Shown here: positions 1,314 through 18,008 of the stretch, one piece after another
How the letters are laid out: each line of letters begins with the position of its first letter
How positions within the stretch are numbered: the first letter of the stretch is position 1
DNA from: Candidatus Woesearchaeota archaeon
GTDB taxonomy: Archaea > Nanobdellota > Nanobdellia > Woesearchaeales > WAPJ01
Direction of reading: 5' to 3'
DNA length: 64,000 nucleotides
Assembly: GCA_047602885.1 (NCBI GenBank)
Contig: JBLKOQ010000003.1
Location: 464 to 64,463, forward strand
Notes under the pieces: generated by a model
Seen by the model: the letters and a program-made list of their open reading frames with translations, nothing else
Databases searched by the model: none
What the model was told of the DNA's origin: nothing
Translations under genes and position numbers: made by a program

Positions 1314-2024
1314 TCAGTCAAGCTCTTTCCACATAAGATATACTTCCACACTGGTTCCACCATCATTATGAGAGCCATTCATTTGTAGTGACTCCAATCT
1401 TACGGTATTGCGGATAGTAAAATCCAGCTTTTCGTGCAGTATTCTTGAAGCTAGACTAGTGCATTCAGAAAACGCATATGAAAAACCCCTTTTACGCGCA
1501 TCAGCCAATGCTTCCTGCAATAATTTTTTTCCTATACCCTTCCCCTCATACCCTGGAGCAACTCCTACTGCAGATACATGAAAACATTTTCCTTCGCCCA
1601 TCATAATATACTGTTTTATTGGACTGCGAATCTCTTCAAGCACTCGCATAAGATAAGATATCTTTTCCTGATCATCTATACTCATAATGTCAGGAATGCT
1701 CTTGTCCCTTACTATTCCAGGATCGTCACATACTATGAATCCAACTTCATTATTCGAGCCAGCCTGCTCCCTTGCAAACCACGACATCCCCTGTATTACA
1801 GGATTATTATTTGTATCGCCATACAAAGACATTGCTACTGATACCATCTGCTTCTTGCTATAACCCAACCATTTAGTCAAAGGCTCCCTATCCTGAAAAA
1901 TATCAACATATAAACTGATTAGATTGTTCATCTCATCAGCCTTGACCTTTACTATAACAATACCAACATTTTCTGTTACCATTCCAAACACACCTCTAAT
2001 AAGATTTATGACGTGCACAGCCAT
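1314..2024 (-). CDS. GNAT family N-acetyltransferase.
   Basis: Acetyl-CoA-binding motif A: GKGIGKKLLQEALADARKRGFSYAFSE. Confidence 0.7.
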   Translation of the reverse strand: MAVHVINLIRGVFGMVTENVGIVIVKVKADEMNNLISLYVDIFQDREPLTKWLGYSKKQMVSVAMSLYGDTNNNPVIQGMSWFAREQAGSNNEVGFIVCDDPGIVRDKSIPDIMSIDDQEKISYLMRVLEEIRSPIKQYIMMGEGKCFHVSAVGVAPGYEGKGIGKKLLQEALADARKRGFSYAFSECTSLASRILHEKLDFTIRNTVRLESLQMNGSHNDGGTSVEVYLMWKELD

Positions 2025-4732: not shown

Positions 4733-5350
4733 ATGCTAAAATCAGATATGCTCAAGATTGTAAAAGAATTACAATTTGATAAACCTGTAGTGGTTTATAA
4801 AAATGAGGTTACAGAAATAATACTATTAAGACCATCTATATTATCAAACAGGTTTAAGTATTATGATAAAAATAAGAATTTTCAAGTCTGGATTAAACAA
4901 GGAGGAAAAAAATTCAGACCAAATCATTTAAGATTATTGATTGATTTAAACTTAAGAGCAAGATGCAGAGAAGATTTAATTATAGAACTTCTTAGTGCTT
5001 TTGATAACATCTTTTATGGAAAGGACCCTGAAATCGAATTACAAAGATTATCTGAACAAAAGTTCGAACATTATCTTAATGATATTATAACAATTGGAGT
5101 TCTATCTCAAACCTTAATCTTGGAACAAGAATACGGATATCATAAGGAAAGCAAGTACAATCCTCCAAGTTTATATCTGCAGGGTTGGATTAGAGCTTTT
5201 ATTTGTAATATAAAAGAGATAGACATACTATTAGCTAGAATATGTGGAAATAATCCTCCTGAAGTTCGATTTACCTGCCAAGATGACAAAAATCATAAAA
5301 AATATAGTAAAGAAAATAAACCTATCTGGTATTTAGAGGATAATTCGTAA
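4733..5350 (+). CDS. Hypothetical protein (205 aa); positional candidate for the restriction endonuclease partner of the adjacent methyltransferases.
   Basis: Convergent with the two-MTase operon and overlapping its 3' end. No recognisable catalytic motif. Confidence 0.35.
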   Translation: MLKSDMLKIVKELQFDKPVVVYKNEVTEIILLRPSILSNRFKYYDKNKNFQVWIKQGGKKFRPNHLRLLIDLNLRARCREDLIIELLSAFDNIFYGKDPEIELQRLSEQKFEHYLNDIITIGVLSQTLILEQEYGYHKESKYNPPSLYLQGWIRAFICNIKEIDILLARICGNNPPEVRFTCQDDKNHKKYSKENKPIWYLEDNS

Positions 5351-6170
5351 TTACAACTTCATTTACTTTTCCTCTCTTGCTAGCATCAGAATTAATTGAC
5401 CTTGAGGCTTGAACTATTCTAATGTTATAATCTTTATATAGACTTTTAATAAAATCAGTATCACTATTGCTTTTCATAACCAAACAACCCTTTTTATCAA
5501 GCTCTCTAAAAATCTCAAATAGTTTAGTTTGTTCTTCTTCCATGAAAACATCTTTAGTATAGGAGGTAAAATTCTTTCCCTTAGTTATAGGATAATAAGG
5601 AGGATCGAAATATACAAAGTCTCCCTTTTCAGCCAAATTAACTATATTTTCAAAAGGCATAAGACGAATGTCTGTATTCTTTATTAACATTGAAATAGCT
5701 CTCAATTTATCTTCTTGTATAATATCCGGATTCTTGTAATCTCCCATAGGAACATTAAATTTACCTTTAGAATTTACTCTATAGAGTCCATTAAAACAAG
5801 TTTTGTTAAGATAAATAAATCTAGCGGCTTTCTCCACATCAGATAATAAGTTATGATCCTTCTCTCTTATTTTTAAGTAATAACTCTTACCTTCAGATAC
5901 ATGATAGTCTTTGTGTTGTTTCAGTTCTAGAATTAAACTCTCAACATCATCCCTAATAACTTTGTAAGCTGTAATAAGCTCATCATTAATATCTGAGATT
6001 ACTGCTTCTTTAGGACTATATTTCTCTTTAACATAAAAGAATACGGCACCACTCCCTACAAATGGCTCGAAATATCTGTTGAAACTCTTTGGAAACAAAG
6101 GTTCAAACTGGCTTAATAACTGTCCTTTGCCCCCTGCCCATTTTACGAACTTAGGAATTTTATAATCCAT
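5322..6170 (-). CDS. Dam-like (alpha-class, D12 family) DNA N6-adenine methyltransferase.
   Basis: N-terminal motif I (FVKWAGGKGQL, FEPFVGSGAVF) and motif IV (YFDPPYY), the canonical D12-class order. Confidence 0.85.
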   Translation of the reverse strand: MDYKIPKFVKWAGGKGQLLSQFEPLFPKSFNRYFEPFVGSGAVFFYVKEKYSPKEAVISDINDELITAYKVIRDDVESLILELKQHKDYHVSEGKSYYLKIREKDHNLLSDVEKAARFIYLNKTCFNGLYRVNSKGKFNVPMGDYKNPDIIQEDKLRAISMLIKNTDIRLMPFENIVNLAEKGDFVYFDPPYYPITKGKNFTSYTKDVFMEEEQTKLFEIFRELDKKGCLVMKSNSDTDFIKSLYKDYNIRIVQASRSINSDASKRGKVNEVVITNYPLNTR

Positions 6171-6194: not shown

Positions 6195-6980
6195 TTAAAT
6201 ACTCTTTTTGATTTCAATCCTTGCTCTTTTTAAAGTAAGGTCCAAGAAATCTTTTTCTTTGTCTATACCTATATATTTCCTGTTAAGCATTTTTGCAACT
6301 ACACCGGTGGTTCCAGAGCCATTGAAAGGGTCTAGAATAACTGCGTTCTCTTTAGTTGAAGCTAATATTATTCTTTTCAACAATTCTACAGGTTTTTGTG
6401 TAGGATGCTTTCCATGAATCTTTTCACTTTGGGGAGTGAGTGGAATATGCCACAGGCTTCTCATCTGTTTTCCTTTAATACTAAATTTATCATTATACTC
6501 TTTCATTATTTCATAATTAAAATAGTGAGGGACATTCTTATTTTTCCGTGCCCAGAGTATTGTTTCATGAGCATGAGCAAAATATTTGCAACTTAGGTTA
6601 GGAGGAGCGTTTGGCTTGAACCATGTTATTTCGTTAAGCAGTTTATAATCATTCAACTGAAGAGCATAACCTACTTGATAAATATTATGCATTGTTCCCG
6701 ATATCCATATTGTGCCATGATCAGTAAGCACTCGTTTGCACGCTCTTATCCATTCTAAGGTAAACTCAAAATCATCATTTATTCCTTTTGACTTATCCCA
6801 ATCGGCTTTGTTAACAGATACCATCTTACCTGCTCTACAAGAAATACCCCCATTTGATAGAAAGTATGGAGGATCAGCAAAAATCATATCGACAGAACAT
6901 GGTTTTAGATTATTAAGTACTTTAAGACAGTCATCATTATATAGTTTAAATCTTATCGACTTATAGTACAAATCAGGCAT
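6195..6980 (-). CDS. Beta-class DNA methyltransferase (N6-adenine or N4-cytosine); second MTase of the Type II module.
   Basis: Motif IV DPPY (VDMIFADPPYF) lies N-terminal to motif I (FNGSGTTGVVAKMLNRKYIGID), the beta-class order. The ORF caller extends the start to 7154, which overlaps the divergent uvrC start. An ATG at 6980 (MPDLYYKSIRFKLYNDDC) sits 22-26 bp downstream of the TATA-like box TTTATAAT and is the more plausible start. Confidence 0.75.
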   Translation of the reverse strand: MPDLYYKSIRFKLYNDDCLKVLNNLKPCSVDMIFADPPYFLSNGGISCRAGKMVSVNKADWDKSKGINDDFEFTLEWIRACKRVLTDHGTIWISGTMHNIYQVGYALQLNDYKLLNEITWFKPNAPPNLSCKYFAHAHETILWARKNKNVPHYFNYEIMKEYNDKFSIKGKQMRSLWHIPLTPQSEKIHGKHPTQKPVELLKRIILASTKENAVILDPFNGSGTTGVVAKMLNRKYIGIDKEKDFLDLTLKRARIEIKKSI

Positions 6981-7089
6981 GCTAATAGAAGGATAATCAA
7001 ACATTATAAACTTTGCTAAATAATGTCCATAGTATTTACGATTAGTCATATTCCACACATTTTTTAAGTAACTATAGTTTCTTAATATC
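6981..7089. promoter_or_regulatory. Divergent promoter region between the beta-class MTase and uvrC.
   Basis: TATA-like boxes in both orientations: TTTATAAT on the minus strand upstream of the 6980 start, and TTTTTTAAG about 25 bp upstream of the uvrC ATG at 7090. Confidence 0.3.
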
Positions 7090-8676
7090 ATGAAAATCAA
7101 ACTCTCCAATATTCCCAAAGAGCCGGGCATATACATGTTCAAGGATGACAACAAAAAAGTAATATATGTGGGAAAAGCAAAGAACCTCAGGCAGAGAGTA
7201 TCATCATACTATAACAAGAATAATAATGCGAAGGCATTGTTCCTTACAAGACATATTCGGGATGTTGACTTTATTATAATGCCCTCAGAAAAGGACGCTC
7301 TTATACTAGAGAACAGGATGATAAAAAAGCATAATCCAAAATACAATATCAGGCTTAAGGATTCTAAGACATACTCTTATATCGCAATAACCAAAGAAGA
7401 GTATCCAAGGCTTATTAGCACGAGGAGAATACCCAAAGATACTGAGTGGTTCGGCCCTTATACTGAAGCGTTAAAAAAGAAAGAGACACTATTATTGGCA
7501 CAGAAGATATACAATATAAGGACATGCAAGAGGATGCCCAAAAAAGCATGCCTTAACTATCATATAGGGCTTTGTAGCGCTCCTTGCATCAATGCCATTA
7601 CCAAAGAAGAATACAATAATAGCGTAGTAAAAGCACTAAAATTTCTGAGAGGGGACATTAAGGAGACTCAAAAGAAGATCAGTGAAGAAATGCACTATTA
7701 TTCGAGCATGCAAAAGTATGAGATAGCACTCAAAAAGAAGAGACAGCTAGAATCTATAATGATACTGAGCGAGAAACAGAATGTAGAGCATAATATCGGC
7801 GATGACTGGGACATATGGGCGATAATGAGGGACAAGAACACCATACTAATAAGCATACTTACAGTAAGGAAGGGCATAATATCAGGAAAGAAGAACTATA
7901 ATATTGACGATAACAATGATAATGCAAGACAATTCCTAACACAATACTATACTACCAATAGAGTGCCTAAAGAGATAATAGTATCAGAAGAGTTATGGGA
8001 GGACAATGATGAGAAAGATGCGATAATAGAATATCTAAAGACTATAAAAAAACAGAGTGTCAGGATACTATTGCCTTTAAGAGGAGAGAAGAAAAGACTA
8101 TTGGACATAGCATTAAAGAACGCTATGGAAAGCACTAACATAAACAATGCTTCTTTGGAAATGCAAAAAATGCTAAACCTTGCATATCCTCCGAGGATTA
8201 TAGAATGTTTTGACATGAGCAACCTTCAGGGTACTGGAATAGTGGGTGGTATGACAAGATGGATTAACATGGCGCCTAACAAGAATGGTTATAGGAGGTT
8301 TGAGATTAGAGAGACTAAGAACAAGCCTGACGATTATAGTGCTATGAAAGAAACGGTATATAGGAGGTATAAGAGGCTAAAAGAAGAGTCATCCCAATAT
8401 CCCGACCTTATAATAGTGGATGGTGGAATAGGACAATTGAACGCTTCTATAAACGCACTATCAAGCCTAGGAATACAAATACCTATTATAGGAATAGCAA
8501 AGAAGAACGAAGAGATATACATTCCCAATACTAAAGAACCAATAAGAAGCAATCCTAACAAAGAGCCATTATTGTCTATCAGGAGGATTAGGGATGCCAC
8601 TCATAACTATGTATTATCTTATCATAGGCATAAGAGAAGGATGAATTTCAGGAAGGAAACCGGCAAGCAAACATAA
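7090..8676 (+). CDS. uvrC: Excinuclease ABC subunit C (UvrC).
   Basis: N-terminal GIY-YIG domain (GIYMFKD...VIYVGKAKNLRQRVSSY) and UvrC C-terminal nuclease/HhH region. Confidence 0.8.
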   Translation: MKIKLSNIPKEPGIYMFKDDNKKVIYVGKAKNLRQRVSSYYNKNNNAKALFLTRHIRDVDFIIMPSEKDALILENRMIKKHNPKYNIRLKDSKTYSYIAITKEEYPRLISTRRIPKDTEWFGPYTEALKKKETLLLAQKIYNIRTCKRMPKKACLNYHIGLCSAPCINAITKEEYNNSVVKALKFLRGDIKETQKKISEEMHYYSSMQKYEIALKKKRQLESIMILSEKQNVEHNIGDDWDIWAIMRDKNTILISILTVRKGIISGKKNYNIDDNNDNARQFLTQYYTTNRVPKEIIVSEELWEDNDEKDAIIEYLKTIKKQSVRILLPLRGEKKRLLDIALKNAMESTNINNASLEMQKMLNLAYPPRIIECFDMSNLQGTGIVGGMTRWINMAPNKNGYRRFEIRETKNKPDDYSAMKETVYRRYKRLKEESSQYPDLIIVDGGIGQLNASINALSSLGIQIPIIGIAKKNEEIYIPNTKEPIRSNPNKEPLLSIRRIRDATHNYVLSYHRHKRRMNFRKETGKQT

Positions 8677-8678
8677 AG

Positions 8679-9779
8679 TTAAAATAATGTCTTTGACAGC
8701 TTATACTTAGAATAGACCTTGCCAGGATCATAGTCTTTTGATAATGCTATGCCTTTACGGTTATACATTATATTCTTGTTCTCATCCCTAATATAAGGGT
8801 CGTGTATTGGCCTTATTCTCTTATTATACAGGCGTTTGCTAAAACATTTTTTTTCTTCAAGCCTCCTGTTAAGCTCTCCTATAATCTTATGCGCATCACC
8901 CTTCCTCTTCTTATACGCATATCGCAGCTTCAATAACAGCTCATTGCCAGACCTTGCTTTCAACAATCTCCTGCCATATCTTATAGGATTCTTGTCAACT
9001 GATGCTATATAGTATACTTCACTAAAATAGTGGTCAAGACTCGACTCTACAATGTTTACAGGCCTATTGGTAGCCTGTATATTCATCCCCAGAAAAGTGT
9101 CTTTTCCTATGCACAGTCCTGACTGCATGCCAAAATATGATATTGTAGGAATGCTCGTCTTGTAAGAGCCGTCCTTTTCGAGAAAGAATGACAACGCAGT
9201 ATCCTTATTGTCATATCCTGCAATATAATAGTTGCCTCCTTTAATCTCGGAGAGGTCCATTAGTCTTGACTGCATATCATTCATCAATACTATATTGGTT
9301 CTAACCACAGTATTCTTTGATATTATGGGTACTGCTATTGAATATCCACTGTCAGCAAGCTTTCCTCTCACAATATCGACATTAAGCGTAACGCTTGGCA
9401 ATACCACATACACTCCTCTGGCGTGTCTCGATACCATCTTAGAGTATAATCCTCCTGGAGAGGCTGCTGACGCTATAATAGTATAAGCATTCCTCAATAG
9501 TATATCATCACCTATATAGTCTGATATTGGATTGTCGTTAATCATTACTCTATGGATTTCTTTAAGACTGTTTATTTCGAAAGGGATGATAATGTCATTA
9601 TCAAGGTCTACTATATAGCATCCTCTAAGCCTAAGGCCATAACTGTAAGGATCTCCAATAGATGACGACGGCCATGTACTAGGTTTGTATAATACGGCTT
9701 CTCTTGCAGACAGGTGGAGGCTATGATACCTTCTTGGGGATTCTGGAAAAATCCTTTTCATAATGATAATATGATGCAA
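8679..9779 (-). CDS. Hypothetical protein (366 aa); last gene of the ATP-grasp/FGase operon.
   Basis: ORF 10 bp downstream of the FGase gene on the same strand. No motif recognised. Confidence 0.5.
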   Translation of the reverse strand: MHHIIIMKRIFPESPRRYHSLHLSAREAVLYKPSTWPSSSIGDPYSYGLRLRGCYIVDLDNDIIIPFEINSLKEIHRVMINDNPISDYIGDDILLRNAYTIIASAASPGGLYSKMVSRHARGVYVVLPSVTLNVDIVRGKLADSGYSIAVPIISKNTVVRTNIVLMNDMQSRLMDLSEIKGGNYYIAGYDNKDTALSFFLEKDGSYKTSIPTISYFGMQSGLCIGKDTFLGMNIQATNRPVNIVESSLDHYFSEVYYIASVDKNPIRYGRRLLKARSGNELLLKLRYAYKKRKGDAHKIIGELNRRLEEKKCFSKRLYNKRIRPIHDPYIRDENKNIMYNRKGIALSKDYDPGKVYSKYKLSKTLF

Positions 9780-9789
9780 TACTATATAA

Positions 9790-10512
9790 TTATGATGGAA
9801 TACTATCCTCTTTTATGGATGATATATAGTCAAAAGTGTCATTTAACACTCTTCTCAGCCTTTCTATTTTGGCATCATCAAGAACCAATGTATCCTCATC
9901 CATGTAAGCTCTCTTGGCTATCTCAAACTCTACTCCTATAGAACCATTCTCTAACACTCTTTTCATAATATTCGCCTTAAGGCCCTTGTAAGGATAGTCT
10001 ATTTTTACGTCGTAACCTTCAAGCTCGAATAATTCTTTTATCTTCATGACTATCTCTTTGGGACATAACGAGTATTCTCCTGTAGCTATGCATATGTCAG
10101 GCCTTATGGTCCCATGATCCCCTCCTCCCTTATTGCCTTGAGAGTCCATGCTATGACAGTCCCATACAAAACTATTGGGTTTTATCATGTCTATATCAGA
10201 ATAGAAAGGATCATAATATTGTGACAATAATGATTCTGTATCCTCAGGATATTTTTTCCATACATTATTGCCATGCCAGTCCTTCCTAATAATTACGCCT
10301 TGGTCACTGCTGAGATCGTCCCTCTTCCTATTAAGGTCTACTACGAATCTTGAAGCACCAGCCACTATCTTAGGGTATTTGAAAGGCTCGTATATCCTAT
10401 CAACCCCATAATCAATATTTTTTAGGATTGATTCAGGAGCTATCTCATAATCTTTTATCATATTTTCTGGAATGTATGTTGATGAGTGCGGTATTGTAAG
10501 TATAATATTCAT
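9790..10512 (-). CDS. N-formylglutamate amidohydrolase (FGase) family zinc hydrolase.
   Basis: LTIPHSSTYIPE near the N-terminus and WDCHSM (the family iDlHSM motif). Confidence 0.6.
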   Translation of the reverse strand: MNIILTIPHSSTYIPENMIKDYEIAPESILKNIDYGVDRIYEPFKYPKIVAGASRFVVDLNRKRDDLSSDQGVIIRKDWHGNNVWKKYPEDTESLLSQYYDPFYSDIDMIKPNSFVWDCHSMDSQGNKGGGDHGTIRPDICIATGEYSLCPKEIVMKIKELFELEGYDVKIDYPYKGLKANIMKRVLENGSIGVEFEIAKRAYMDEDTLVLDDAKIERLRRVLNDTFDYISSIKEDSIPS

Positions 10513-11405
10513 TGGTTATACCCCCTGTCATTGCTCGCCTTTATTTCTAGAGCAATATCTTTAATGTGCAATAACATCTTTCTTGCAAGCTCCCCTCCAA
10601 AATATTTTGGCATTATCCCGGGAGTAAAATTGGCTTCTATAAACCGTGTGCCATCACTGGTTTCTATAAAGTCTATAGCACATATCGAGAGTCCAAGCAA
10701 TTGGGAGCATGACAGTGCCATTTGCTTAATATCATCAGGAAGCTCAACAATTTCTGCTTTTCCTCCAGTGCTTACATTGGCCCTCCACTCATTCCCACTA
10801 CCTGTTCTCCTAATTCCTATAACCTCTTCTCCTATAACTAATCCTCGAGTATCAGTATTGGCGTTAGGTACGAATGACTGCATTGACAGGAATTCCTCGA
10901 ATACTTGCAGAGTGTCTAGTATAGGCCTTAATTCCTCCTCAGATTTTAATAGCATTACACCCTTACCCCCATAACCCTGCAATAGCTTTAATACTAGTGG
11001 GTATCCTAGTTTTTCTCCAAGGCATAATGCACTGCCAGGGCTTATGGACAGTGAAGAGTCTGGGCTTGGTATTCCTATCCTGGATACTTTCTGGACAGAA
11101 AAATATTTGTGATTGGTAATCTGGTATCCGTCAAGGCATGATGGCATTGCTATGCCCTTAGACTCTAACAAGTCCAATAATATTTCTGCAAACAAAAAGT
11201 CTTTTTGAAACACTCTAATATAAGCGCAGTCAAAAGAGGTTAAGTCTACATTCTTGTATTTTGCCTTAATCTCATTATCCTCCAAGTCTATCCTTACAAG
11301 GTCTATAGGAACGTACAATACGGAATCGAATATCTTCTTAGCCTCTTCTATGAAGATATGTTTTACATCCTCTCCGTCTTGGCCTGATATTAGCGCGAAT
11401 CTCAT
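10509..11405 (-). CDS. RimK/GshB-type ATP-grasp ligase.
   Basis: GYPLVLKLLQGYGGKGVMLLKSEEEL (ATP-grasp core) and C-terminal LGLSICAIDFIETSDGTRFIEANFTPG. Confidence 0.75.
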   Translation of the reverse strand: MRFALISGQDGEDVKHIFIEEAKKIFDSVLYVPIDLVRIDLEDNEIKAKYKNVDLTSFDCAYIRVFQKDFLFAEILLDLLESKGIAMPSCLDGYQITNHKYFSVQKVSRIGIPSPDSSLSISPGSALCLGEKLGYPLVLKLLQGYGGKGVMLLKSEEELRPILDTLQVFEEFLSMQSFVPNANTDTRGLVIGEEVIGIRRTGSGNEWRANVSTGGKAEIVELPDDIKQMALSCSQLLGLSICAIDFIETSDGTRFIEANFTPGIMPKYFGGELARKMLLHIKDIALEIKASNDRGYNQ

Positions 11406-12223
11406 GAACCTTTAACCCTCCTGCCTACAAAATCCAACAGTTTCATTGCAATATCACTCCCTGTAATGTTGCTGTAAACGTCCATGTCAAATGATATCCT
11501 AGCGTCTATAACCTTACCATTGCATGTTATTATGACACCGGCATCCAATCCAAGATTCTTTGCAGCGCCTATAATCATGGCATTATGACTGTCGCTCATC
11601 TTAACCCCATTATAATATGTGCTGTGAGCGCTCTTTGATTCTACCCACGCCTTCTTTATAGTGTATACTTCATCTCCTATAACCAGGTTCTCTTCAATAT
11701 CGCCCCTCTCATAAGACATTAATACTAATACATCATAATTTGTGTCTATTCCCTTAAGATATGATTTCAGGCTTTCTTCAGACTCAAAAATAACTTGTTG
11801 TGTCCTATTAAAACTCTTGTATAATTCTGCTTTTACAGGGTATGTCATGTCTACTATTCCTAGTTCAGGGACTCTTTTACCTGAATATATCCTCATATAA
11901 GGCATTGGTATGCCCTTAGATTTCATCACATAATAAGTGAACGGCCTATTAGCCAGTAGGTTGAATGCTGTGGGCTTAATCTGACTGTAGACTCCCCTTT
12001 CACTAAGCTCCTCTAACATTGGCTCTACAAAGAGCATAAACTTCCAAGGCACCATTATTATTGCAGCATCATAATGGTCAAAAGATAATACTGAAGCCCT
12101 CCCTGACTCTACCATTAGCGATAATGAAGAGATATCAATCTTATCAACCGATAAATCAAGCTTAACAGCAGCATCCTCTAATGTTTTGGGCATGTCATTC
12201 TGGCTTATGAGGGCTATTCTCAT
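11402..12223 (-). CDS. Second RimK-type ATP-grasp ligase paralog.
   Basis: C-terminal KNLGLDAGVIITCNGKVIDARISFDM matches the RimK-type lgLD.aGVD...dG..vlEvN element. Overlaps both neighbours by 4 bp. Confidence 0.6.
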   Translation of the reverse strand: MRIALISQNDMPKTLEDAAVKLDLSVDKIDISSLSLMVESGRASVLSFDHYDAAIIMVPWKFMLFVEPMLEELSERGVYSQIKPTAFNLLANRPFTYYVMKSKGIPMPYMRIYSGKRVPELGIVDMTYPVKAELYKSFNRTQQVIFESEESLKSYLKGIDTNYDVLVLMSYERGDIEENLVIGDEVYTIKKAWVESKSAHSTYYNGVKMSDSHNAMIIGAAKNLGLDAGVIITCNGKVIDARISFDMDVYSNITGSDIAMKLLDFVGRRVKGS

Positions 12224-13824
12224 TTCCTATCATGCTCCTTCCCATTGGTAAGGCTTGGCTTCCATTCAGGCTTATTCTTTTTCTGGGGAGCGGTTTTTGC
12301 ATCAACATAAGGACTGATATAATTATTGACTACTCTTGATTCCCTCATGCTCTGTCTAAGATACCTCTCAAATGCTTTTGATATGCTCTGATAAGCCGAT
12401 ATCTCACCATAATACAATCCCTCATTTATCCTCCATGCTGCAGCAGTCTTCCTCCTCGCAAATACAGTGTATCCTTTTCTTCCTTCCTCTAAATGCTTCT
12501 GGAGTTTCTTGGCGTTGATAAGATATGTGCCTCTCGTCCTCATTACAGGATCCAGTATGACAAGCTCATCCTCTTCTACTCCTGCAACAAGCACATACTT
12601 GTCTTCTTTAGTCTTTTGATCCCCATTACTCGAAGGTATGCATAGTATTATCAGCGCTTCCTGGGTTAGCCATGACTGTATCTCAGACCTAAGATTGTAT
12701 TTGGAATTCCATTCTATAAAAGCGCCTTGAACCTCGTCTTTAGTAAGCTCTTTGGCAGCAATTATCATATTCTCTGTTTCCGTAGAGCCCTTGGATTTCT
12801 TCATGATGCCAATAACATTAGCAGAGTCAGCATCATATCCGAAGAATGATAGTAGCAGTGAGAGTGAAGCTCCTGAACTCTTGGAGGGGAGCGCTACAGT
12901 ATGCTTGGATATTAATGGCTCTAGCCTGTGAATGTCAGTTGATGTTCTTTTGATAAGCAGCGCTTTACGCATGATAATGCTGTTAGGTATCATGATGCTG
13001 TATCCTGAATCGAAAGAGACATAAGCAGCATGGCCTGTGATTTGTGTTACCTCTCCTACTTTTCCTTGTAATTGTATCTTCTGGCCTATCCTAACAACGT
13101 GTTTTGAAACGTAAGGGCTTATCAGCAGGTTGGCAGCATAATCCTTAAAACCGTATCCTATGAAGAATGCCAATAATATCATGAATATTATCATGCTAGA
13201 AACCAATATGACATCAAATACCATGAAAGAGAGCTCAGCATAGTTCATCGCTGCGCTTAGTATTGCAAGGCCGAGGAAAAGTTTTACGAAGCCGAATATG
13301 AATCCTACCAGTCTGGGACTCAACTGGTACTCTTGTAAATGCTTATCTCCCGCTTTTAGTATGAAGTCCCTTACAAGGTTGAGGAAGACTGTCATTATAG
13401 CAGTTGCAAATACTGTGATAAGAACCACTAATAAGAGTCTTGCTGTTAAATCCCTAATGATATCCCAAGTGTCATCAACGATAGGCATTCCTATAACTGC
13501 AAGTGCCAAGAATATGGATATAGATACTATTATTATGGACAATAGCCTGTCAGATCCCACCTTCTTGTTCTCATGCAATCCTAGTGAGCTCCTAATAGTC
13601 CTCACTTTTCTTGATAAGAATCCTGCCAGTATTATACCAAGAGCTATTATGAGCACTCCTACTATGACTTTCCATAATATTATGCCCATACCAATATCAG
13701 ATGACAGCATATCCATTGTTGATTGTATAAATCCCATAAGCATCCCCAAGGAGTCTGATAGAACCAAAATAAGTTTATAAAGATATGTGTATTGTGACCG
13801 GAAGTATGGACAATCGGCCAACAC
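12220..13824 (-). CDS. MscS-like mechanosensitive channel fused to a ~230-aa C-terminal soluble domain (possibly an inactive papain/C39-like fold).
   Basis: Multi-TM N-terminus and the MscS beta-domain signature GEVTQITGHAAYVSFDSGYSIMIPNSIIMRKAL. The C-terminal region KYVLVAGVEEDELVILDP resembles the C39_2-like HyvvvtGyd..v.v.DP terminus without an obvious Cys/His pair. Confidence 0.65.
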   Translation of the reverse strand: MLADCPYFRSQYTYLYKLILVLSDSLGMLMGFIQSTMDMLSSDIGMGIILWKVIVGVLIIALGIILAGFLSRKVRTIRSSLGLHENKKVGSDRLLSIIIVSISIFLALAVIGMPIVDDTWDIIRDLTARLLLVVLITVFATAIMTVFLNLVRDFILKAGDKHLQEYQLSPRLVGFIFGFVKLFLGLAILSAAMNYAELSFMVFDVILVSSMIIFMILLAFFIGYGFKDYAANLLISPYVSKHVVRIGQKIQLQGKVGEVTQITGHAAYVSFDSGYSIMIPNSIIMRKALLIKRTSTDIHRLEPLISKHTVALPSKSSGASLSLLLSFFGYDADSANVIGIMKKSKGSTETENMIIAAKELTKDEVQGAFIEWNSKYNLRSEIQSWLTQEALIILCIPSSNGDQKTKEDKYVLVAGVEEDELVILDPVMRTRGTYLINAKKLQKHLEEGRKGYTVFARRKTAAAWRINEGLYYGEISAYQSISKAFERYLRQSMRESRVVNNYISPYVDAKTAPQKKNKPEWKPSLTNGKEHDRK

Positions 13825-13855: not shown

Positions 13856-14674
13856 ATGGTTGCCTATTCTCATTCAAGAATATCAACTTTTGAACAATGC
13901 AGACTAAAGTATAAATACCAGTATATAGATAGGATAAAAGTAGATATTCCTACTACTATAGAAGCTCATATGGGCTCTGCAGTGCACCATGCACTATACA
14001 TATTATATCAGGAGCTATCTAAAGGGAATGTATTGTCAGAAAAAGAGCTTATAAACATTTATGAGGATGCCTGGCAGAAGGACTGGGATCCCAACATACT
14101 GATAGCAAAGCATGGCCATGATGACAGGATGTACTTAGTTAAAGGGAGGTCATACATATCAAGATATTATGCTATCCACTCCCCTTTTGACAGATTAGAA
14201 ACACTGGGCTTAGAAACACAAGACTACCTTAGGCTTAACAATAAGGACAGCTATCATATTAGGATTGACAGGCTTGCAAGAAACAACGAATCATATTTTG
14301 TAATAGACTATAAGACCAATAACAGGGCCAAGACACAATCAGAGATTAATGAGGACAAGCAACTCGCTATGTACTCATTATGGGTTAAAGAGAAATATGA
14401 TGCTAGTGATGTCAGGCTAGTATGGCACTTCCTTACTAACGGCACCACTCTTACCAGCATTAGGAAAGATGATGAGTTATTGTCATTAAAAGAAGAGATA
14501 CTGGACAAGATTAGTATTATAGAATCGGCAGATGATTATCCTCCCAATCCTAGCGGTCTATGCCCATACTGTGTGTTTAAGGAAATATGCCCTGCCATGA
14601 ACATTAATAGTATAAAATCAGAGCATATTATTATACCTAAAAAGATAGAGAGGCAAACAAAGCTTAACTTTTAG
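13856..14674 (+). CDS. Cas4/RecB-like PD-(D/E)XK nuclease (DUF83-type) with four Fe-S cluster cysteines; standalone.
   Basis: N-terminal Cys (RISTFEQCRLKY), a D-x-K motif (VIDYKTN) and C-terminal CPYCVFKEIC. No CRISPR array in the window. Confidence 0.65.
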   Translation: MVAYSHSRISTFEQCRLKYKYQYIDRIKVDIPTTIEAHMGSAVHHALYILYQELSKGNVLSEKELINIYEDAWQKDWDPNILIAKHGHDDRMYLVKGRSYISRYYAIHSPFDRLETLGLETQDYLRLNNKDSYHIRIDRLARNNESYFVIDYKTNNRAKTQSEINEDKQLAMYSLWVKEKYDASDVRLVWHFLTNGTTLTSIRKDDELLSLKEEILDKISIIESADDYPPNPSGLCPYCVFKEICPAMNINSIKSEHIIIPKKIERQTKLNF

Positions 14675-15467: not shown

Positions 15468-18008
15468 CTATCTGCCGACATTAATAGTAATATTAGCCTG
15501 AGTAGACTGGCCATAACTATCAGTGGCTCTTGCTACAAAAGTATATCTTCCTTCCCTAAGCCTTGGAAGCTCAAAGTCGTAAGGAGGCTCCATTAATGAT
15601 CCCATCTGAATAAGATGAGTTCGTCTGCTCGCAAAATGCTCATAAAGCGCATAGAAGTCTACCCTTACCGATTCTCCAAGATAATCTCTTGCTTCCAGGT
15701 TAATCAGAGCGGCCGAGAACCTCGTAAATAGGTCTTGAAGCCTTGGAGTAATAAACCTTATTATAGGATGTGGTGTTTCGGGAGGCTCAGGCACATATTC
15801 TTTTACATGGAATTCTACAGCACTACTTGTAGTAGTTGCACCTTCATTGTCAGTAGCCCTAGCCCTTAGACTATATGTTCCTACATCCAATACACCTAAT
15901 GGTAAATTATACGGTGCTTCAGTATCAGTCCCTAATACTTTACCGTCCAACAAGAACTCTACCTTTACTACCTGGCCATCGCTGTCATGCGCATCAGCCA
16001 TAGCCATTATAACAACATTGTCATAATAGACTCCTCCATCCTCAGGATTGGTTACAGCTACTGTAGGAGGAACATTCTCTGCAGGTGGAGCAACCACATA
16101 CACAGTTACTGGTGTTGAAGTAGCAGTAGCGCCCCCATTATCAGTAGCCCTAGCACTAATATCATAAGAGCCTACCATTGCAGGCACCCATGATAATGAC
16201 CAAGGACTCGTAGTTCGCTCCCCAACTTTTACACCATCAGCAAAAAACTCAACCTTTACAACACTTCCGTCAGGATCACTGGCACTTGCAACTATAGTCA
16301 CACTATCACCCAATACAAACTCAGCACCCTCCACAGGACTACTAATTGAAACTACAGGGGGCTTGTTTGGAATGTCAGGAGCATCAATCTTAAAGCTTAC
16401 AGGAGCACTAGTCCTATGAGCATTATCATTGTCTACTGCTCTTGCCCTCAACTCATAAGTTCCAGGCGTCAATGACTTGAATTGTGCAGTGTAAGGCTCG
16501 TCATAGTCAGTATGCACCAAATCTCCATTCAACAAGAATTCTACACGGTCTATGTCGCCGTCAGCATCAGAAGCATCAGCCTCAGCATATACAGTATCTC
16601 CTTCATCATATGATGCACCATCACTAGGCCTAATTAGGCTCACAGTAGGCCTCTCATTAACTCTTATGCTTACAATCGAAGATGCAGTGCTAGCATCATC
16701 ATTATCATATGCTACTGCCCTGAACCTGTAAGCTCCAGGACTCAATGCTTCCTGATTGTACTGGTAAGGCGCATTAGTATCTGTATGTACAAGCTGGTCG
16801 TCCCTATAGAATTCTACTTTAACTATATTACCATCGCTGTCATGAGCATCAACGCGCACTTCTATAGGCTCATCAGACTGGAATACCTCATTATGCTGAG
16901 GCCTAGTAATAGATACTGTAGGAGGGACATTGTCTGGAGGCGGACCAGCAACATTAATACTTACTGCTGATGAAGTAGCAGTAGCGCCCCCATTATCAGT
17001 AGCCCTAGCACTAATATCATAAGAGCCTACCATTGCAGGCACCCATGATAATGACCAAGGACTCGTAGTTCGCTCCCCAACTTTTACACCATCAGCAAAA
17101 AACTCAACCTTTACAACACTTCCGTCAGGATCACTGGCACTTGCAACTATAGTCACACTATCACCCAATACAAACTCAGCTCCAGACTCAGGACTAGTTA
17201 CAGAAACAACTGGAGGCTGGTTAGGAGCGCCCGTAACAATATATCTTCCCTGGACAGGATTGCTTGGAATATGATCCTCACTATAAGCTACTGCTATTAG
17301 AGTAGTATCACCAGTAATCCTAATGGGCTCAGTGTATACCATAGCATCAATGTCGCTGGTCAATATGTCATTCCACTCCTCTAGCAATACCAGACAGGCT
17401 GCAACATCCTCATCATCCTGCTCGCCTATTTCTCCCACCCACTTATTAATATCCGTTATTATGGTCTCATTCATCACTGTAAAAACTTCTATGCAGGCAT
17501 CCACTCCCTTAGGGTCCACTTCTGACAATAGGTATGATAGAGAATCATATTTGGGGTCAGAGAATACGTTGAGAGTATCTAAACATAAGCCCACAGTTGC
17601 CATACGCAGATTCCCTACTCCCACATGAACCATAATTTCATGTGCCCATCCTTCAGAAACATCTGTGATATCACTATATATTGTACGATATACCTCATTA
17701 TATATTCGTCTACAGGAAGCATCATTGCCAAAAGCCTCCCAAAACGATTCTACTTTTCTGCCAAAATCATCAAGGTTCACTGGGCTAGTGCCGTCAAGAG
17801 TGTATAGAATAGTAGCTCCTGGCGTTGGAGTGGTAAGAGTGACATCAACATAGTTTTGTGCAAAGCTATCTGGAGCAGGGCTCATCACAGGATCTGATGC
17901 TCTACCCTTAACAACTATTTCATCGCCAAACAGTGAATCCTCTACATTACAGGATATCAGTGCAAAAGTGACTATAAACAATACTATTATTAGTTTAAGG
18001 TTTGCCAT
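15468..18008 (-). CDS. Large secreted/surface protein with tandem Ig-like (Big/PKD-like) domains; possible lipoprotein.
   Basis: Signal peptide with a lipobox-like LISC; about five repeated ~90-aa domains; two are near-identical (PPVVSxTSPESGAEFVLGDSVTIVASASDPDGSVVKVEFFADGVKVGERTTSPWSLSWVPAMVGSYDISARATDNGGATATS). Confidence 0.7.
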   Translation of the reverse strand: MANLKLIIVLFIVTFALISCNVEDSLFGDEIVVKGRASDPVMSPAPDSFAQNYVDVTLTTPTPGATILYTLDGTSPVNLDDFGRKVESFWEAFGNDASCRRIYNEVYRTIYSDITDVSEGWAHEIMVHVGVGNLRMATVGLCLDTLNVFSDPKYDSLSYLLSEVDPKGVDACIEVFTVMNETIITDINKWVGEIGEQDDEDVAACLVLLEEWNDILTSDIDAMVYTEPIRITGDTTLIAVAYSEDHIPSNPVQGRYIVTGAPNQPPVVSVTSPESGAEFVLGDSVTIVASASDPDGSVVKVEFFADGVKVGERTTSPWSLSWVPAMVGSYDISARATDNGGATATSSAVSINVAGPPPDNVPPTVSITRPQHNEVFQSDEPIEVRVDAHDSDGNIVKVEFYRDDQLVHTDTNAPYQYNQEALSPGAYRFRAVAYDNDDASTASSIVSIRVNERPTVSLIRPSDGASYDEGDTVYAEADASDADGDIDRVEFLLNGDLVHTDYDEPYTAQFKSLTPGTYELRARAVDNDNAHRTSAPVSFKIDAPDIPNKPPVVSISSPVEGAEFVLGDSVTIVASASDPDGSVVKVEFFADGVKVGERTTSPWSLSWVPAMVGSYDISARATDNGGATATSTPVTVYVVAPPAENVPPTVAVTNPEDGGVYYDNVVIMAMADAHDSDGQVVKVEFLLDGKVLGTDTEAPYNLPLGVLDVGTYSLRARATDNEGATTTSSAVEFHVKEYVPEPPETPHPIIRFITPRLQDLFTRFSAALINLEARDYLGESVRVDFYALYEHFASRRTHLIQMGSLMEPPYDFELPRLREGRYTFVARATDSYGQSTQANITINVGR
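16116..16325. repeat. Intragenic direct repeat, copy 1. It is 210 bp and identical to 16971-17180.
   Basis: Exact 210-bp duplication inside the Ig-domain gene; the duplication likely extends with mismatches to ~255 bp. Confidence 0.8.
16971..17180. repeat. Intragenic direct repeat, copy 2.
   Basis: Identical to 16116-16325. Confidence 0.8.

What the first reader, a model, noticed from the sequence alone, without database searches (positions are those of the whole stretch)
8679..13824. Five-gene amidoligase-type operon: MscS-like channel fused to a soluble C-terminal domain, two RimK-type ATP-grasp ligases, an FGase-family amidohydrolase and an unknown 366-aa protein
Seen in sequence: five minus-strand genes packed with 4-bp overlaps or a 10-bp gap, implying translational coupling. 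Both ATP-grasp proteins carry RimK-type C-terminal elements. The hydrolase has the FGase PH..T and CHSM motifs. The first gene carries the MscS signature followed by ~230 extra residues ending KYVLVAGVEEDELVILDP, which resembles the C39-like or inactive-transglutaminase terminus. Established knowledge: RimK-type ligases add amino acids (often Glu) to proteins, cofactors or small molecules, and FGase-family enzymes are amide hydrolases. ATP-grasp plus peptidase plus membrane-protein neighbourhoods have been predicted as peptide-tag or metabolite synthesis-and-turnover systems, but few are characterised. Inference: a ligase and its reverse hydrolase coupled to a mechanosensitive channel suggest an osmoregulated synthesis/degradation cycle of a gamma-glutamyl-type compound or a protein C-terminal tag. 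The MscS fusion partner and the double ligase make this unusual.
Basis: partly seen in the sequence, partly recalled or inferred. Interest (0 to 1): 0.7.

Follow-up and report, generated by a model that had tools for sequence, protein, structure and literature searches.

The report
Channel-linked glutamate ligase/hydrolase gene cluster
A few Woesearchaeota archaea carry a tightly packed gene set: a mechanosensitive-channel-like membrane protein fused to a (here dead) peptidase domain, one dead and one working RimK-type amino-acid ligase, and enzymes that undo such ligations. It is an uncharacterised archaeal counterpart of the bacterial RimK/RimB and RloABC systems.

Summary
The five co-directional, overlapping genes are real. 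They lie on a Candidatus Woesearchaeota contig. Tools change the parts list.

- **g1** is a 5-TM MscS-like protein. Its usual cytoplasmic alpha-beta domain is replaced by a papain-fold C39/phytochelatin-synthase-like domain plus a highly conserved tail. In this lineage the Gln/Cys/His catalytic residues are lost, so it is a pseudo-peptidase.
- **g2** is a full-length RimK homologue that has lost the ATP-binding Lys, the Gly-rich loop and the Mg ligands in all nine orthologues. It is a pseudo-ligase, not a second ligase.
- **g3** is an intact RimK-type ligase. It scores far below the cut-offs for MptN, CofF, LysX and S6-RimK.
- **g4** is an FGase-family amidohydrolase, not HutG.
- **g5**, the "unknown" protein, models confidently and contains a gamma-glutamyl-cyclotransferase fold.

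Only the g1-g2-g3 triad is invariant across about 12 loci, which span 28-62% GC and go down to 30% identity. The hydrolase partner varies: FGase, MATCAP, or both. g5 is a separable add-on.

Best reading: a membrane-anchored, reversible glutamyl-type ligation module. It follows the logic of RimK/RimB and RloABC but is built from different parts. The substrate and the osmotic link remain inferred. Verdict: a new variant of a known kind, of moderate-to-good interest.

The parts
12220..13737 (-). g1: 505-aa membrane protein (NCBI ACMXYL_01035). It has 5 TM helices, an MscS-like pore helix and beta-domain, a C39-like pseudo-peptidase domain and a conserved tail. The mechanical ORF extends to GTG 13824.
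12952..13737 (-). g1 residues 1-262: N-out/C-in 5-TM region, MscS TM3-like helix (KDYAANLL) and MscS beta-domain (GKVGEVTQITGH...IPNS).
   Evidence: The family profile hits MscM and MscS chains at E about 1e-3 over the pore helix and beta-domain. PF00924 is hit in 5 of 7 family members and reaches the gathering score in L015. Foldseek hits AtMSL10, MscS and YnaI. Topology was derived by hydropathy and the positive-inside rule.
12448..12930 (-). g1 residues about 270-430: papain-fold C39/phytochelatin-synthase-like domain. In this window it is catalytically dead (Gln->Ala, Cys->Ser287, His->Tyr).
   Evidence: Peptidase_C39 is hit in 7 of 7 members, and C39_2 reaches 8e-13. Foldseek hits PeiR, the PCAT1 peptidase domain, Alr0975 and 3erv.
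12223..12447 (-). g1 residues 431-505: conserved cytoplasmic tail (WRI.EGLYYG..SAYQSISK.FERYL...R.SR.V..ISP, then WKP.L). It is the most conserved stretch of the family, and its role is unknown.
   Evidence: Invariant columns and the alignment. It has low pLDDT and is predicted helical.
11402..12223 (-). g2: 273-aa RimK paralogue without catalytic residues (pseudo-ligase). Its start overlaps the g1 stop (ATGA).
   Evidence: hhalign against g3 gives 99.3% probability. The profile against RimK 7qyr gives 1.3e-10 over the full length. In all 9 orthologues K140->E, the Gly-rich loop is lost and the Mg ligands are lost.
10509..11405 (-). g3: 298-aa intact RimK-type ATP-grasp ligase. Its start overlaps the g2 stop (ATGA).
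   Evidence: PF08443 3.4e-28. TIGR00768 scores 143.0 bits against a cut-off of 143.4. Pseudomonas and E. coli RimK structures match at 1e-21 to 2e-19. Catalytic columns are invariant.
9790..10512 (-). g4: 240-aa FGase-family amidohydrolase with no signal peptide. Its start overlaps the g3 stop (ATGA).
   Evidence: PF05013 3e-32. HutG TIGR02017 scores 49.6 bits against a cut-off of 279. The PHSS, VVDxNR, DC(H/Q)SMDS and E.E motifs are conserved.
8679..9761 (-). g5: 360-aa orphan-family protein (NCBI ACMXYL_01015) containing a gamma-glutamyl-cyclotransferase (GGCT/AIG2) fold domain. It probably has its own promoter.
13774..13781 (-). TATA-like box TTTATAAA, 31-37 nt upstream of the ATG codons at 13743 and 13737. 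It is the putative operon promoter (archaeal, short or no leader).
   Evidence: Read from the sequence. Its role as a promoter is an inference only.
9783..9790 (-). TATA-like ATTATATA, 22 nt upstream of the g5 ATG (9761). It is a possible internal promoter for g5.
   Evidence: Read from the sequence. It is consistent with other genes being inserted at the g4/g5 junction in L003 and L012.

Best explanation
This is a membrane-anchored module for reversible ATP-dependent ligation of glutamate (or a similar amino acid) to a carboxylate.

Shown here:
- The invariant core is three translationally coupled genes.
- g1 is a 5-TM MscS-like protein. Its cytoplasmic side carries a papain-fold C39/phytochelatin-synthase-like domain in place of the MscS alpha-beta domain. 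That domain looks active in one clade and dead in the window's clade.
- g2 is a catalytically dead RimK paralogue.
- g3 is an intact RimK-type ligase.
- Around this core sit cytoplasmic enzymes whose family chemistry reverses such ligations: an FGase-family amidohydrolase (R-CO-Glu -> R-COOH + Glu), a MATCAP-family metallocarboxypeptidase (removal of a C-terminal residue or Glu), and, in the window's clade, a GGCT-fold protein (gamma-glutamyl amide cleavage).

Inferred:
- g3, held and regulated by the pseudo-ligase g2, works at the cytoplasmic face of the g1 oligomer.
- The pseudo-peptidase domain no longer cuts. It binds the acidic peptide or Glu-tailed substrate or product.
- The hydrolases take the modification off again.
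- The MscS-like part couples this cycle to membrane tension or osmotic state, either by controlling the enzymes or by letting the product or glutamate out.
- My preferred substrate class is a free or carrier-bound oligo-Glu or X-Glu peptide rather than a ribosomal protein.
For: **Gene coupling.** There are ATGA overlaps at three junctions.

**Triad conservation.** The triad is conserved in every locus recovered (L001-L006, L008, L013-L018), despite 30-42% g1 identity and GC from 0.28 to 0.62.

**g1 domains.**
- The MscS assignment comes from the profile against PDB, Pfam hits in orthologues and Foldseek.
- The C39/phytochelatin-like domain comes from Pfam and Foldseek.
- The Gln/Cys/His residues are intact in P0007, L014 and L015 and replaced in the other seven sequences.
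- The C-in topology puts this domain in the cytoplasm with the soluble enzymes.

**Ligases.** g2 is a pseudo-ligase. g3 is an intact RimK-type enzyme.

**Hydrolase partners change while the triad stays.**
- FGase only: window, L001-3, L018.
- MATCAP only: L004-6, L013.
- Both in one co-directional operon: L015/L016.

**Other support.**
- MATCAP-family enzymes are C-terminal carboxypeptidases that also deglutamylate (PMC10499314).
- g5 has a GGCT fold.
- Analogy: RimK is opposed by the RimB protease. The RloABC system combines an inactive-transglutaminase membrane protein, a RimK-like ATP-grasp protein and a poly-Glu-cleaving protease, and it has a hypo-osmotic stress phenotype (PMC11957051).
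- There is a precedent for a non-ribosomally made dipeptide osmolyte, NAGGN (PMC8070244).
Against: - No substrate or product has been identified. No candidate carrier or precursor gene lies in the operon.
- The window's own g1 gives no MS_channel hit.
- Its pore-lining helix is bulky and hydrophobic rather than Gly/Ala-rich as in E. coli MscS (alignment). Conduction, or even a heptameric assembly, is therefore unproven.
- No physical g1-g2-g3 complex was tested.
- The family is tiny (about 12 loci, all Woesearchaeota-like), so co-occurrence partly reflects shared ancestry.
- g5 is separable. It has inserts at the junction, and a distant homologue stands alone.
- The osmotic link rests on homology and analogy only.
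- The amino-acid specificity of g3 cannot be read from sequence.
Confidence: 0.5

Rival explanations
1. Protein C-terminal tagging cycle (RimK/RimB or TTL/MATCAP logic). g3 adds Glu residues to the C-terminus of a specific protein. FGase or MATCAP trims them. g1 is the membrane scaffold or receptor that reads the tail through its pseudo-peptidase domain, possibly feeding membrane-bound LonB proteolysis.
For: The best PDB matches of g3 are the S6-modifying RimK enzymes. MATCAP-family enzymes act on protein C-termini. MATCAP sits next to LonB and PAC2 in L004-6 and L013. C39 domains and their inactive relatives bind peptide tails (established knowledge).
Against: g3 scores 70 bits against a cut-off of 331 for the S6 ligase equivalog. 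Archaea lack bacterial S6 (established knowledge). No candidate target with an acidic C-terminus is encoded in the operon, and the g1 C-termini are basic. The LonB adjacency is confined to one closely related clade and is absent from the window.
Confidence: 0.27
2. Gamma-glutamyl thiol peptide metabolism (glutathione- or phytochelatin-like) coupled to a ligand-gated channel, in the manner of glutathione-gated KefC. g3 acts as a GshB-like synthetase. The papain-fold domain binds (or, in the active clade, transpeptidates) the gamma-Glu peptide. The GGCT-fold g5 degrades it.
For: g3 hits GSH-S_ATP at 1e-12. The L015 g1 passes the Pfam Phytochelatin threshold (31 bits against 24.9), and Foldseek finds Alr0975. 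g5 has the GGCT/ChaC fold. A GCS2 glutamate-cysteine-ligase-family gene abuts the triad in L014.
Against: GCS2 is present in one locus only, is convergent, and is absent from the window. g3 scores 48 bits against cut-offs of 272-299 for glutathione synthase. g5 is not part of the invariant core.
Confidence: 0.1
3. RiPP-type (graspetide-like) peptide maturation and export. The ATP-grasp enzyme modifies a ribosomal precursor, the C39 domain removes a leader, and the MscS-like pore exports the product.
For: An ATP-grasp enzyme plus a C39 peptidase fused to a membrane exporter is the classic layout of graspetide or bacteriocin clusters (PMC8939145, listed). The C39 triad is intact in three lineages.
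Against: g3 is RimK-type (1e-41), while it matches RiPP maturase models only at 6e-6 to 8e-4, with scores of 19-26 bits against cut-offs of 350-425. There is no room for a precursor gene in the overlapping operon. The peptidase is dead in most lineages, yet the triad is retained. The partners are exo-acting amidohydrolases.
Confidence: 0.06
4. Housekeeping cofactor or amino-acid pathway ligase (MptN, CofF, LysX/ArgX) that merely happens to sit next to unrelated genes.
For: The highest-scoring equivalog models for g3 are MptN and LysX.
Against: All scores lie far below the curated cut-offs. No pathway genes are nearby. The gene order with g1 and g2 is conserved across deep divergence.
Confidence: 0.03

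Closest known systems
RloABC of Pseudomonas aeruginosa (PMC11957051) and the membrane-associated RimK-like systems predicted by Iyer et al. 2009 (the latter recalled from memory; the paper was not held)
   Same: A polytopic membrane protein fused to a catalytically inactive domain of the papain/transglutaminase fold class, a cytoplasmic RimK-like ATP-grasp ligase, and a peptidase that undoes (poly)glutamylation, all in one operon. The Rlo phenotype is hypo-osmotic sensitivity, which fits an MscS-type partner here.
   Different: The membrane part is a 7TM protein, not MscS-like. The inactive domain is a periplasmic transglutaminase, not a cytoplasmic C39/phytochelatin-synthase-like domain. The peptidase is a secreted retropepsin, not a cytoplasmic FGase, MATCAP or GGCT enzyme. 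There is no pseudo-ligase. It is bacterial (mostly Proteobacteria), not archaeal.
RimK/RimB(/RimA) ribosomal protein S6 glutamylation system
   Same: g3 is a RimK-family ATP-grasp enzyme, and its best structural-sequence matches are RimK. A dedicated hydrolase opposes the ligase.
   Different: g3 is far below the S6-ligase equivalog cut-off. There is no bacterial S6 in archaea. Membrane anchoring, the pseudo-ligase and the hydrolase families all differ.
Tubulin tyrosine ligase / TTLL enzymes with MATCAP (TMCP) carboxypeptidases in eukaryotes (PMC10499314)
   Same: An ATP-grasp ligase is paired with a MATCAP-family metallocarboxypeptidase in L004-6, L013 and L015. A TTL/YheCD-like ATP-grasp gene follows g5 in relatives.
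   Different: The window itself has neither MATCAP nor the TTL-like gene. There is no tubulin context. The ligase of the core is RimK-type, not TTL-type.
MscS-family mechanosensitive channels (MscS, YnaI, MscK/MscM, MSL10)
   Same: An odd number of TM helices, the TM3b-like motif and the beta-domain with the G.V..I....T....DG....IPN signature.
   Different: The MS_channel_3rd alpha-beta domain and the C-terminal barrel are missing, replaced by a peptidase-like domain. The pore helix lacks the Gly/Ala packing pattern. The window's protein is below Pfam thresholds.
C39 peptidase domains of PCAT exporters and the inactive C39-like domains (CLD) of RTX exporters such as HlyB (CLD recalled from memory); prokaryotic phytochelatin-synthase-like Alr0975
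   Same: A papain-fold domain fused on the cytoplasmic side of a membrane transport-type protein. Active (Gln/Cys/His) and inactive versions both exist within one family.
   Different: It is fused C-terminally to an MscS-like protein rather than N-terminally to an ABC transporter. The partners are ATP-grasp ligases, not bacteriocin precursors.
BtrJ/BtrG of butirosin biosynthesis (ATP-grasp gamma-glutamyl ligase plus gamma-glutamyl cyclotransferase; recalled from memory)
   Same: In relatives of the window, a GGCT-fold protein (g5) is paired with an ATP-grasp ligase.
   Different: There is no sequence similarity to known GGCT families. g5 is twice as long. The partner ATP-grasp gene is missing from this window.

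Membership tests
MscS family (Pfam MS_channel_2nd PF00924 and relatives) | Significant match to the beta-domain / TM3 model | tested here: inconclusive
   The window's g1 gives no hit at E<=1. Five of seven family members hit PF00924 (best 7.6e-5), and the L015 orthologue reaches 20.8 bits against a cut-off of 20.2. The family profile hits MscM and MscS chains at E 1e-3 to 3e-3.
MscS family | Predicted fold resembling solved MscS-type channels | tested here: met
   Foldseek hits AtMSL10 at 2e-5, and MscS, YnaI, MscK and Flycatcher at 1e-3 to 1e-2. The model is of moderate quality (pLDDT 69.5).
MscS family | Cytoplasmic alpha-beta domain (MS_channel_3rd) forming the vestibule | tested here: not met
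   There is no hit in any member. The region after the beta-domain is the C39-like domain.
MscS family | Tension-gated conductance; heptameric assembly | not testable with these tools
   This needs patch-clamp, reconstitution or cryo-EM.
Peptidase C39 / C39_2 (papain-fold) | Sequence and fold match to the domain | tested here: met
   PF03412 is hit in 7 of 7 members (best 1.3e-6), and PF13529 reaches 8e-13 and 1.3e-14 in orthologues. Foldseek finds the PCAT1 peptidase domain, 6mpz, 3erv and PeiR. The window's own hit is only E 0.1.
Peptidase C39 / C39_2 | Catalytic Gln (oxyanion), Cys and His | tested here: not met
   In the window Gln->Ala, Cys->Ser and His->Tyr. The residues are intact only in P0007, L014 and L015.
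RimK family alpha-L-glutamate ligases (TIGR00768 / PF08443), g3 | Match to family models and intact ATP-grasp catalytic residues | tested here: met
   PF08443 3.4e-28. TIGR00768 scores 143.0 bits, right at the 143.4 cut-off. The Lys, Gly-rich loop, NEWRxN motif and D/E/N Mg ligands are invariant.
RimK family, g3 | Glutamate-specific ligase activity | not testable with these tools
   This needs an enzyme assay.
RimK family, g2 | Homology over the full length | tested here: met
   hhalign against g3 gives 99.3% probability and E 4e-20. The profile against RimK 7qyr gives 1.3e-10 over residues 1-270.
RimK family, g2 | ATP-binding Lys, Gly-rich loop, Mg-binding D/E/N | tested here: not met
   In 9 of 9 orthologues Lys->Glu, the loop is replaced, and D245, E257 and N259 are replaced.
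Defined RimK-type equivalogs: MptN, CofF, LysX, S6-RimK, GshB | Score at or above the curated NCBIfam cut-off | tested here: not met
   Scores against cut-offs are 111/350, 64/300, 104/276, 70/331 and 48/272-299.
FGase family (PF05013), g4 | Match above the gathering score | tested here: met
   113 bits against a cut-off of 28.9. The motifs are conserved among six orthologues.
HutG N-formylglutamate deformylase (TIGR02017) | Equivalog score; hut gene context | tested here: not met
   49.6 bits against a cut-off of 278.75. No hut genes are nearby.
Gamma-glutamyl cyclotransferase / AIG2 fold, g5 | Fold match | tested here: met
Gamma-glutamyl cyclotransferase / AIG2 fold, g5 | YGSL-type substrate loop and catalytic Glu | tested here: inconclusive
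   There is no sequence-level match. An invariant SPGGL loop after a strand and an invariant Ser171-Glu172 are candidates. No residue-level superposition was available.
RloABC-type / Iyer-type membrane-associated RimK systems | Inactive transglutaminase fused to 7TM; RLAN-type RimK-like ligase; retropepsin-like protease | tested here: not met
   No Transglut_i_TM, 7TM_transglut or Zn_protease hits were found in any of the five proteins. The system resembles this family in logic only.
Known anti-phage defence systems (PADLOC) | Any component matching a defence model | tested here: not met
   There are no hits at E<=0.01 for any of the five proteins.

The most novel reading that the evidence does not exclude
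A mechanosensitive-channel scaffold directly controls an ATP-grasp ligase through two pseudo-enzymes (a dead C39 peptidase domain and a dead RimK subunit). Membrane tension would then switch the cell between free glutamate, which is osmotically active, and oligo- or poly-glutamate or Glu-capped peptides, which are osmotically near-silent, with FGase, MATCAP and GGCT enzymes regenerating the monomer. This would be an enzymatic osmotic buffer that spares the solute loss caused by ordinary MscS opening. That could be valuable for tiny, metabolically poor DPANN cells.
Probability: 0.12. Interest if true: 0.85.

Novelty: new variant of a known kind. Interest (0 to 1): 0.55.

Why it matters
RimK-type ligases with membrane partners, such as RloABC, matter for stress tolerance and virulence in bacteria, yet their substrates and the role of the "inactive enzyme" membrane domain are unknown.

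This archaeal version is built from different parts: MscS-like instead of 7TM, C39-like instead of transglutaminase, and FGase, MATCAP or GGCT enzymes instead of retropepsin. It arrives at the same layout and adds a conserved pseudo-ligase. That convergence argues that the layout itself is functional: a membrane protein with a dead papain-fold domain, a Glu ligase and a de-ligase.

The MscS homology also offers a concrete and testable link to osmotic or tension sensing.

In addition, the work:
- shows prokaryotic MATCAP and FGase enzymes as interchangeable partners of one ligase;
- gives a first fold assignment to an orphan protein family (g5);
- provides natural active and inactive pairs of the C39-like domain for experiments.

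Tried and rejected
- Exact-sequence look-up of the FGase found nothing.
- Single-sequence PDB search with g2 found nothing; only the family profile worked.
- Sequence-level searches for g5 found nothing useful: Pfam on all nine members, NCBIfam and a profile against PDB. The weak NeqB_N, TRP75 and trigger-factor hits were discarded as noise.
- The weak S1 hit in g1 is the MscS beta-domain barrel, not an RNA-binding domain.
- The weak 'rSAM_RiPP_HGH', MmeI_C and MlrA hits in g2 were discarded.
- The metagenome scan with g2 patterns found no relative. Viral scans with g1 and g5 found none, so this is not a viral element.
- PADLOC gave no hits, so it is not a known defence system.
- tblastn of the TTL/YheCD-like ATP-grasp, MATCAP, GCS2, LonB, PAC2, ArgRS and a canonical MscS from related loci found none of them in the window.
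- The AFDB50 fold library was unavailable.
- Iyer et al. 2009 (PMC3268129) is not held.
- Literature searches for DUF1704 or MATCAP with ATP-grasp, for FGase with RimK, and for GGCT with ATP-grasp neighbourhoods returned nothing.
- I rejected the idea that g1's own C-terminus is the ligase substrate, because the tails are basic and variable.

Full report
**Where it is and whether it is real**

The window is a contig of a Candidatus Woesearchaeota MAG. The NCBI proteins ACMXYL_01035, _01030 and _01015 are 100% identical to g1, g2 and g5. The window has about 36% GC, and no tRNA or Rfam family was found anywhere in it.

Five minus-strand ORFs occupy 8679-13824. The g1/g2, g2/g3 and g3/g4 junctions are ATGA overlaps.

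Two starts need correcting.
- g1 begins at ATG 13743 or 13737 (505 aa), not at GTG 13824. Every homologue starts there, and a TATA-like TTTATAAA (13774-13781) lies inside the longer ORF.
- g5 begins at ATG 9761 (360 aa). An ATTATATA box lies 22 nt upstream of it.

**g1**

On its own, the window's protein gives no MS_channel hit in Pfam. It gives only weak S1, Peptidase_C39 and DUF3335 hits.

The family is very small: seven clusters among 5.8 billion proteins, plus three more loci from contig scans. The family as a whole settles the architecture.
- A profile of the seven proteins hits MscM and MscS chains at E 1e-3 to 3e-3, across the pore-helix and beta-domain region.
- Five of seven members hit MS_channel_2nd. 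All seven hit Peptidase_C39. Two hit Peptidase_C39_2, down to 8e-13.
- The L015 orthologue passes the gathering scores for C39_2, Phytochelatin and MS_channel_2nd.
- An AlphaFold model (pLDDT 69.5, with 80-90 in the C-terminal domain) retrieves two sets of solved structures. One set is papain-fold: PeiR, the PCAT1 C39 domain, phytochelatin-synthase-like Alr0975 and 3erv. The other set is MscS-type: AtMSL10, MscS, YnaI and MscK.

Hydropathy and the positive-inside rule give five TM helices, N-out and C-in. The peptidase-like domain is therefore cytoplasmic. It replaces the MscS alpha-beta vestibule domain, for which there is no hit in any member.

The catalytic Gln, Cys and His of C39 enzymes are intact in one clade (P0007, L014, L015). 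In the other seven sequences, including the window, they are replaced: Ala/Thr for Gln, Ser for Cys, and Tyr/Ser for His.

The best-conserved stretch of the whole protein is a roughly 50-residue tail after this domain. Its role is unknown.

One caveat applies. The pore-lining helix is bulky and hydrophobic, not Gly/Ala-rich as in E. coli MscS (alignment). Channel activity is therefore not established.

**g2 and g3**

g3 is a standard RimK-type ATP-grasp enzyme.
- Pfam RimK matches at 3.4e-28, and rimK_fam scores 143 bits, right at its cut-off.
- The best PDB matches are Pseudomonas and E. coli RimK.
- All catalytic columns are invariant.
- It is far below every curated equivalog cut-off: MptN, LysX, S6-RimK, CofF and GshB.

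g2 has no Pfam or PDB hit as a single sequence. Its family profile, however, aligns end to end with RimK (1.3e-10) and with g3 (hhalign 99.3%).

In all nine orthologues the ATP-binding Lys is Glu, the GxGGKG loop is gone, the NEWRxN motif is gone and the three Mg ligands are replaced. g2 is thus a conserved pseudo-ligase, not a second ligase. Since RimK enzymes are oligomers (established knowledge), a g2/g3 hetero-oligomer is the natural inference. It was not tested.

**g4 and g5**

g4 is an FGase-family amidohydrolase (3e-32). It is not HutG (49.6 bits against a cut-off of 279), it has conserved motifs and it has no signal peptide.

**Comparative context**

The g1-g2-g3 triad, in that order and tightly packed, is present in every locus long enough to show it (L001-L006, L008, L013-L018). 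g1 identity goes down to 30%, and locus GC ranges from 0.28 to 0.62. All loci with a taxonomic label are Woesearchaeota.

The hydrolase partner varies by lineage:

| Loci | Hydrolase next to the triad |
|---|---|
| Window, L001-3, L018 | FGase directly downstream |
| L004-6, L013 | MATCAP-family metallocarboxypeptidase, divergently upstream, and no FGase |
| L015/L016 | MATCAP-g1-g2-g3-FGase in one co-directional operon |
| L014 | Neither; a GCS2-family ligase is convergent |

g5 occurs only in the window's clade.
- It tolerates insertions between itself and g4: a UvrD/HNH/RHH block in L003 and an RHH-PIN pair in L012.
- It is normally followed by a TTL/YheCD-like ATP-grasp gene. That gene is absent from this window, where uvrC abuts g5.
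- A distant g5 relative stands alone.

The conserved unit is therefore the triad plus at least one "de-ligase". g5 is a neighbouring, probably separately transcribed, module with a related theme.

**Mechanism**

Shown: every soluble enzyme around the triad belongs to a family that makes or breaks amide bonds to glutamate or to C-terminal residues.
- RimK: R-COOH + Glu + ATP.
- FGase: N-acyl-Glu hydrolysis, which is the chemical reverse.
- MATCAP: C-terminal residue removal and deglutamylation (PMC10499314).
- GGCT: gamma-glutamyl amide cleavage.

All of these are cytoplasmic, as is the peptidase-like domain of g1.

Inferred: g3, partnered with g2, acts at the cytoplasmic face of the g1 oligomer. 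The dead C39-like domain serves as a binding or sensor module for the acidic product or tail. The hydrolases reset the system. The MscS-like part ties this to membrane tension or provides an exit.

The closest experimentally studied analogues are two bacterial systems.
- RimK/RimB.
- RloABC of P. aeruginosa, which combines an inactive-transglutaminase membrane protein, a RimK-like RloC and poly-Glu-cleaving RloA proteases. Loss of the RloA proteases causes hypo-osmotic sensitivity, and that defect is suppressed by rloB or rloC mutations (PMC11957051).

The resemblance lies in logic, not in membership, because none of the Rlo domains is present here. A dipeptide osmolyte made non-ribosomally (NAGGN; PMC8070244) shows that peptide ligation can serve osmoadaptation.

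**Confidence in each reading**

| Reading | Probability |
|---|---|
| Reversible Glu-type ligation module anchored on g1 (general statement) | about 0.5 |
| Free or carrier-bound acidic peptide as the substrate | about 0.3 |
| Protein C-terminus as the substrate | about 0.27 |
| Real osmotic or tension coupling | about 0.25-0.3 |
| Gamma-glutamyl-thiol reading | about 0.1 |
| RiPP-export reading | about 0.06 |
| Housekeeping cofactor or pathway ligase | about 0.03 |

The gamma-glutamyl-thiol reading draws on the phytochelatin-like domain, the GGCT fold and the GCS2 gene in L014. The RiPP-export reading is weak because g3 matches RiPP maturase models poorly, there is no room for a precursor gene, and the peptidase is dead in most lineages. 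A housekeeping role is essentially excluded. No known defence system matches, and there are no viral relatives.

**Novelty and verdict**

I found no description of this architecture in the literature. The features that are new relative to RimK/RimB and RloABC are:
- an MscS-like protein fused to a C39/phytochelatin-synthase-like domain;
- an obligate pseudo-RimK;
- interchangeable FGase and MATCAP partners.

The overall logic, however, is the one already proposed for membrane-associated RimK-like amidoligase systems. I rate it a new variant of a known kind, with interest 0.55.

The "unknown" protein now has a fold.

Noticed in passing
window 2162-3847 (+) and 1314-2024 (-): A Kef-type cation/proton antiporter (Na_H_Exchanger plus a TrkA_N gating domain) lies about 5 kb from the operon. 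In bacteria this is the architecture of the glutathione-gated K+ efflux systems. A GNAT acetyltransferase sits next to it. This may be coincidence, but it is thematically close to the osmotic and gamma-glutamyl-peptide readings.
   Followed up: no
window 5322-6170 (-) and 6195-7154 (-); uvrC 7090-8676 (+): Two adjacent DNA methyltransferases (D12-class N6-adenine and N6_N4_Mtase) have no obvious restriction enzyme nearby. The long TTG-started ORF of the second one overlaps the uvrC start by 65 nt on the opposite strand.
   Followed up: no
window 15468-18008 (-): An 846-aa signal-peptide-bearing surface protein is built of Big/PKD-like repeats, and two segments of about 80 residues are nearly identical. 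Local GC is 0.43 against 0.36 for the window. A homologue is a conserved neighbour in L001 and L002.
   Followed up: no
window 13856-14674 (+): A PD-(D/E)XK / Cas4-like nuclease is transcribed divergently from g1. It is a conserved neighbour in L001-L003 but not in more distant loci.
   Followed up: partly
L001 13052-14023, L002 9974-10945, L003 12032-end, L010 2702-3676: A third, TTL/YheCD-like ATP-grasp gene always follows the g5 homologue in relatives. It has been lost from this window, where uvrC abuts g5. g5 plus this ligase look like a separate ligase/gamma-glutamyl-cyclotransferase pair.
   Followed up: partly
L003 7192-10820; L012 1554-2237: The g4/g5 junction is an insertion hot spot. 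L003 carries an RHH-HNH-UvrD helicase-PDDEXK block there, and L012 carries an RHH-PIN toxin-antitoxin pair at the same place.
   Followed up: no
L014 11198-12511 (-), 6533-7921 (+), 12526-14148 (-): In this active-C39 lineage the triad is flanked by a GCS2-family (glutamate-cysteine-ligase-like) carboxylate-amine ligase and by two large proteins (462 and 540 aa) with no Pfam hit.
   Followed up: no
L004/L005/L006/L013 upstream of MATCAP: An archaeal LonB protease is a conserved neighbour of MATCAP in L004-L006 and L013. A PAC2 proteasome-assembly-chaperone-like gene lies beyond it in L005 and L006, and an arginyl-tRNA synthetase follows the triad in L004, L005 and L013. This hints at a link to proteolysis, but it is confined to one closely related clade, and none of these genes is in the window.
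   Followed up: partly
L016 10893-11801 (-): The genome carrying the most complete operon also encodes an ordinary MscS (MS_channel_2nd plus MS_channel_3rd, 302 aa) about 6 kb away. g1 is therefore an addition to the canonical channel, not a replacement for it.
   Followed up: no
g1 C-terminus, window 12223-12300 (-) and orthologues: A short WKP.L motif near the extreme C-terminus is conserved in all clades except the MATCAP-only clade (P0005, P0006, L013), whose tails are truncated.
   Followed up: no
whole window 1-64000: No tRNA gene and no Rfam family at gathering score was found in 64 kb.
   Followed up: no
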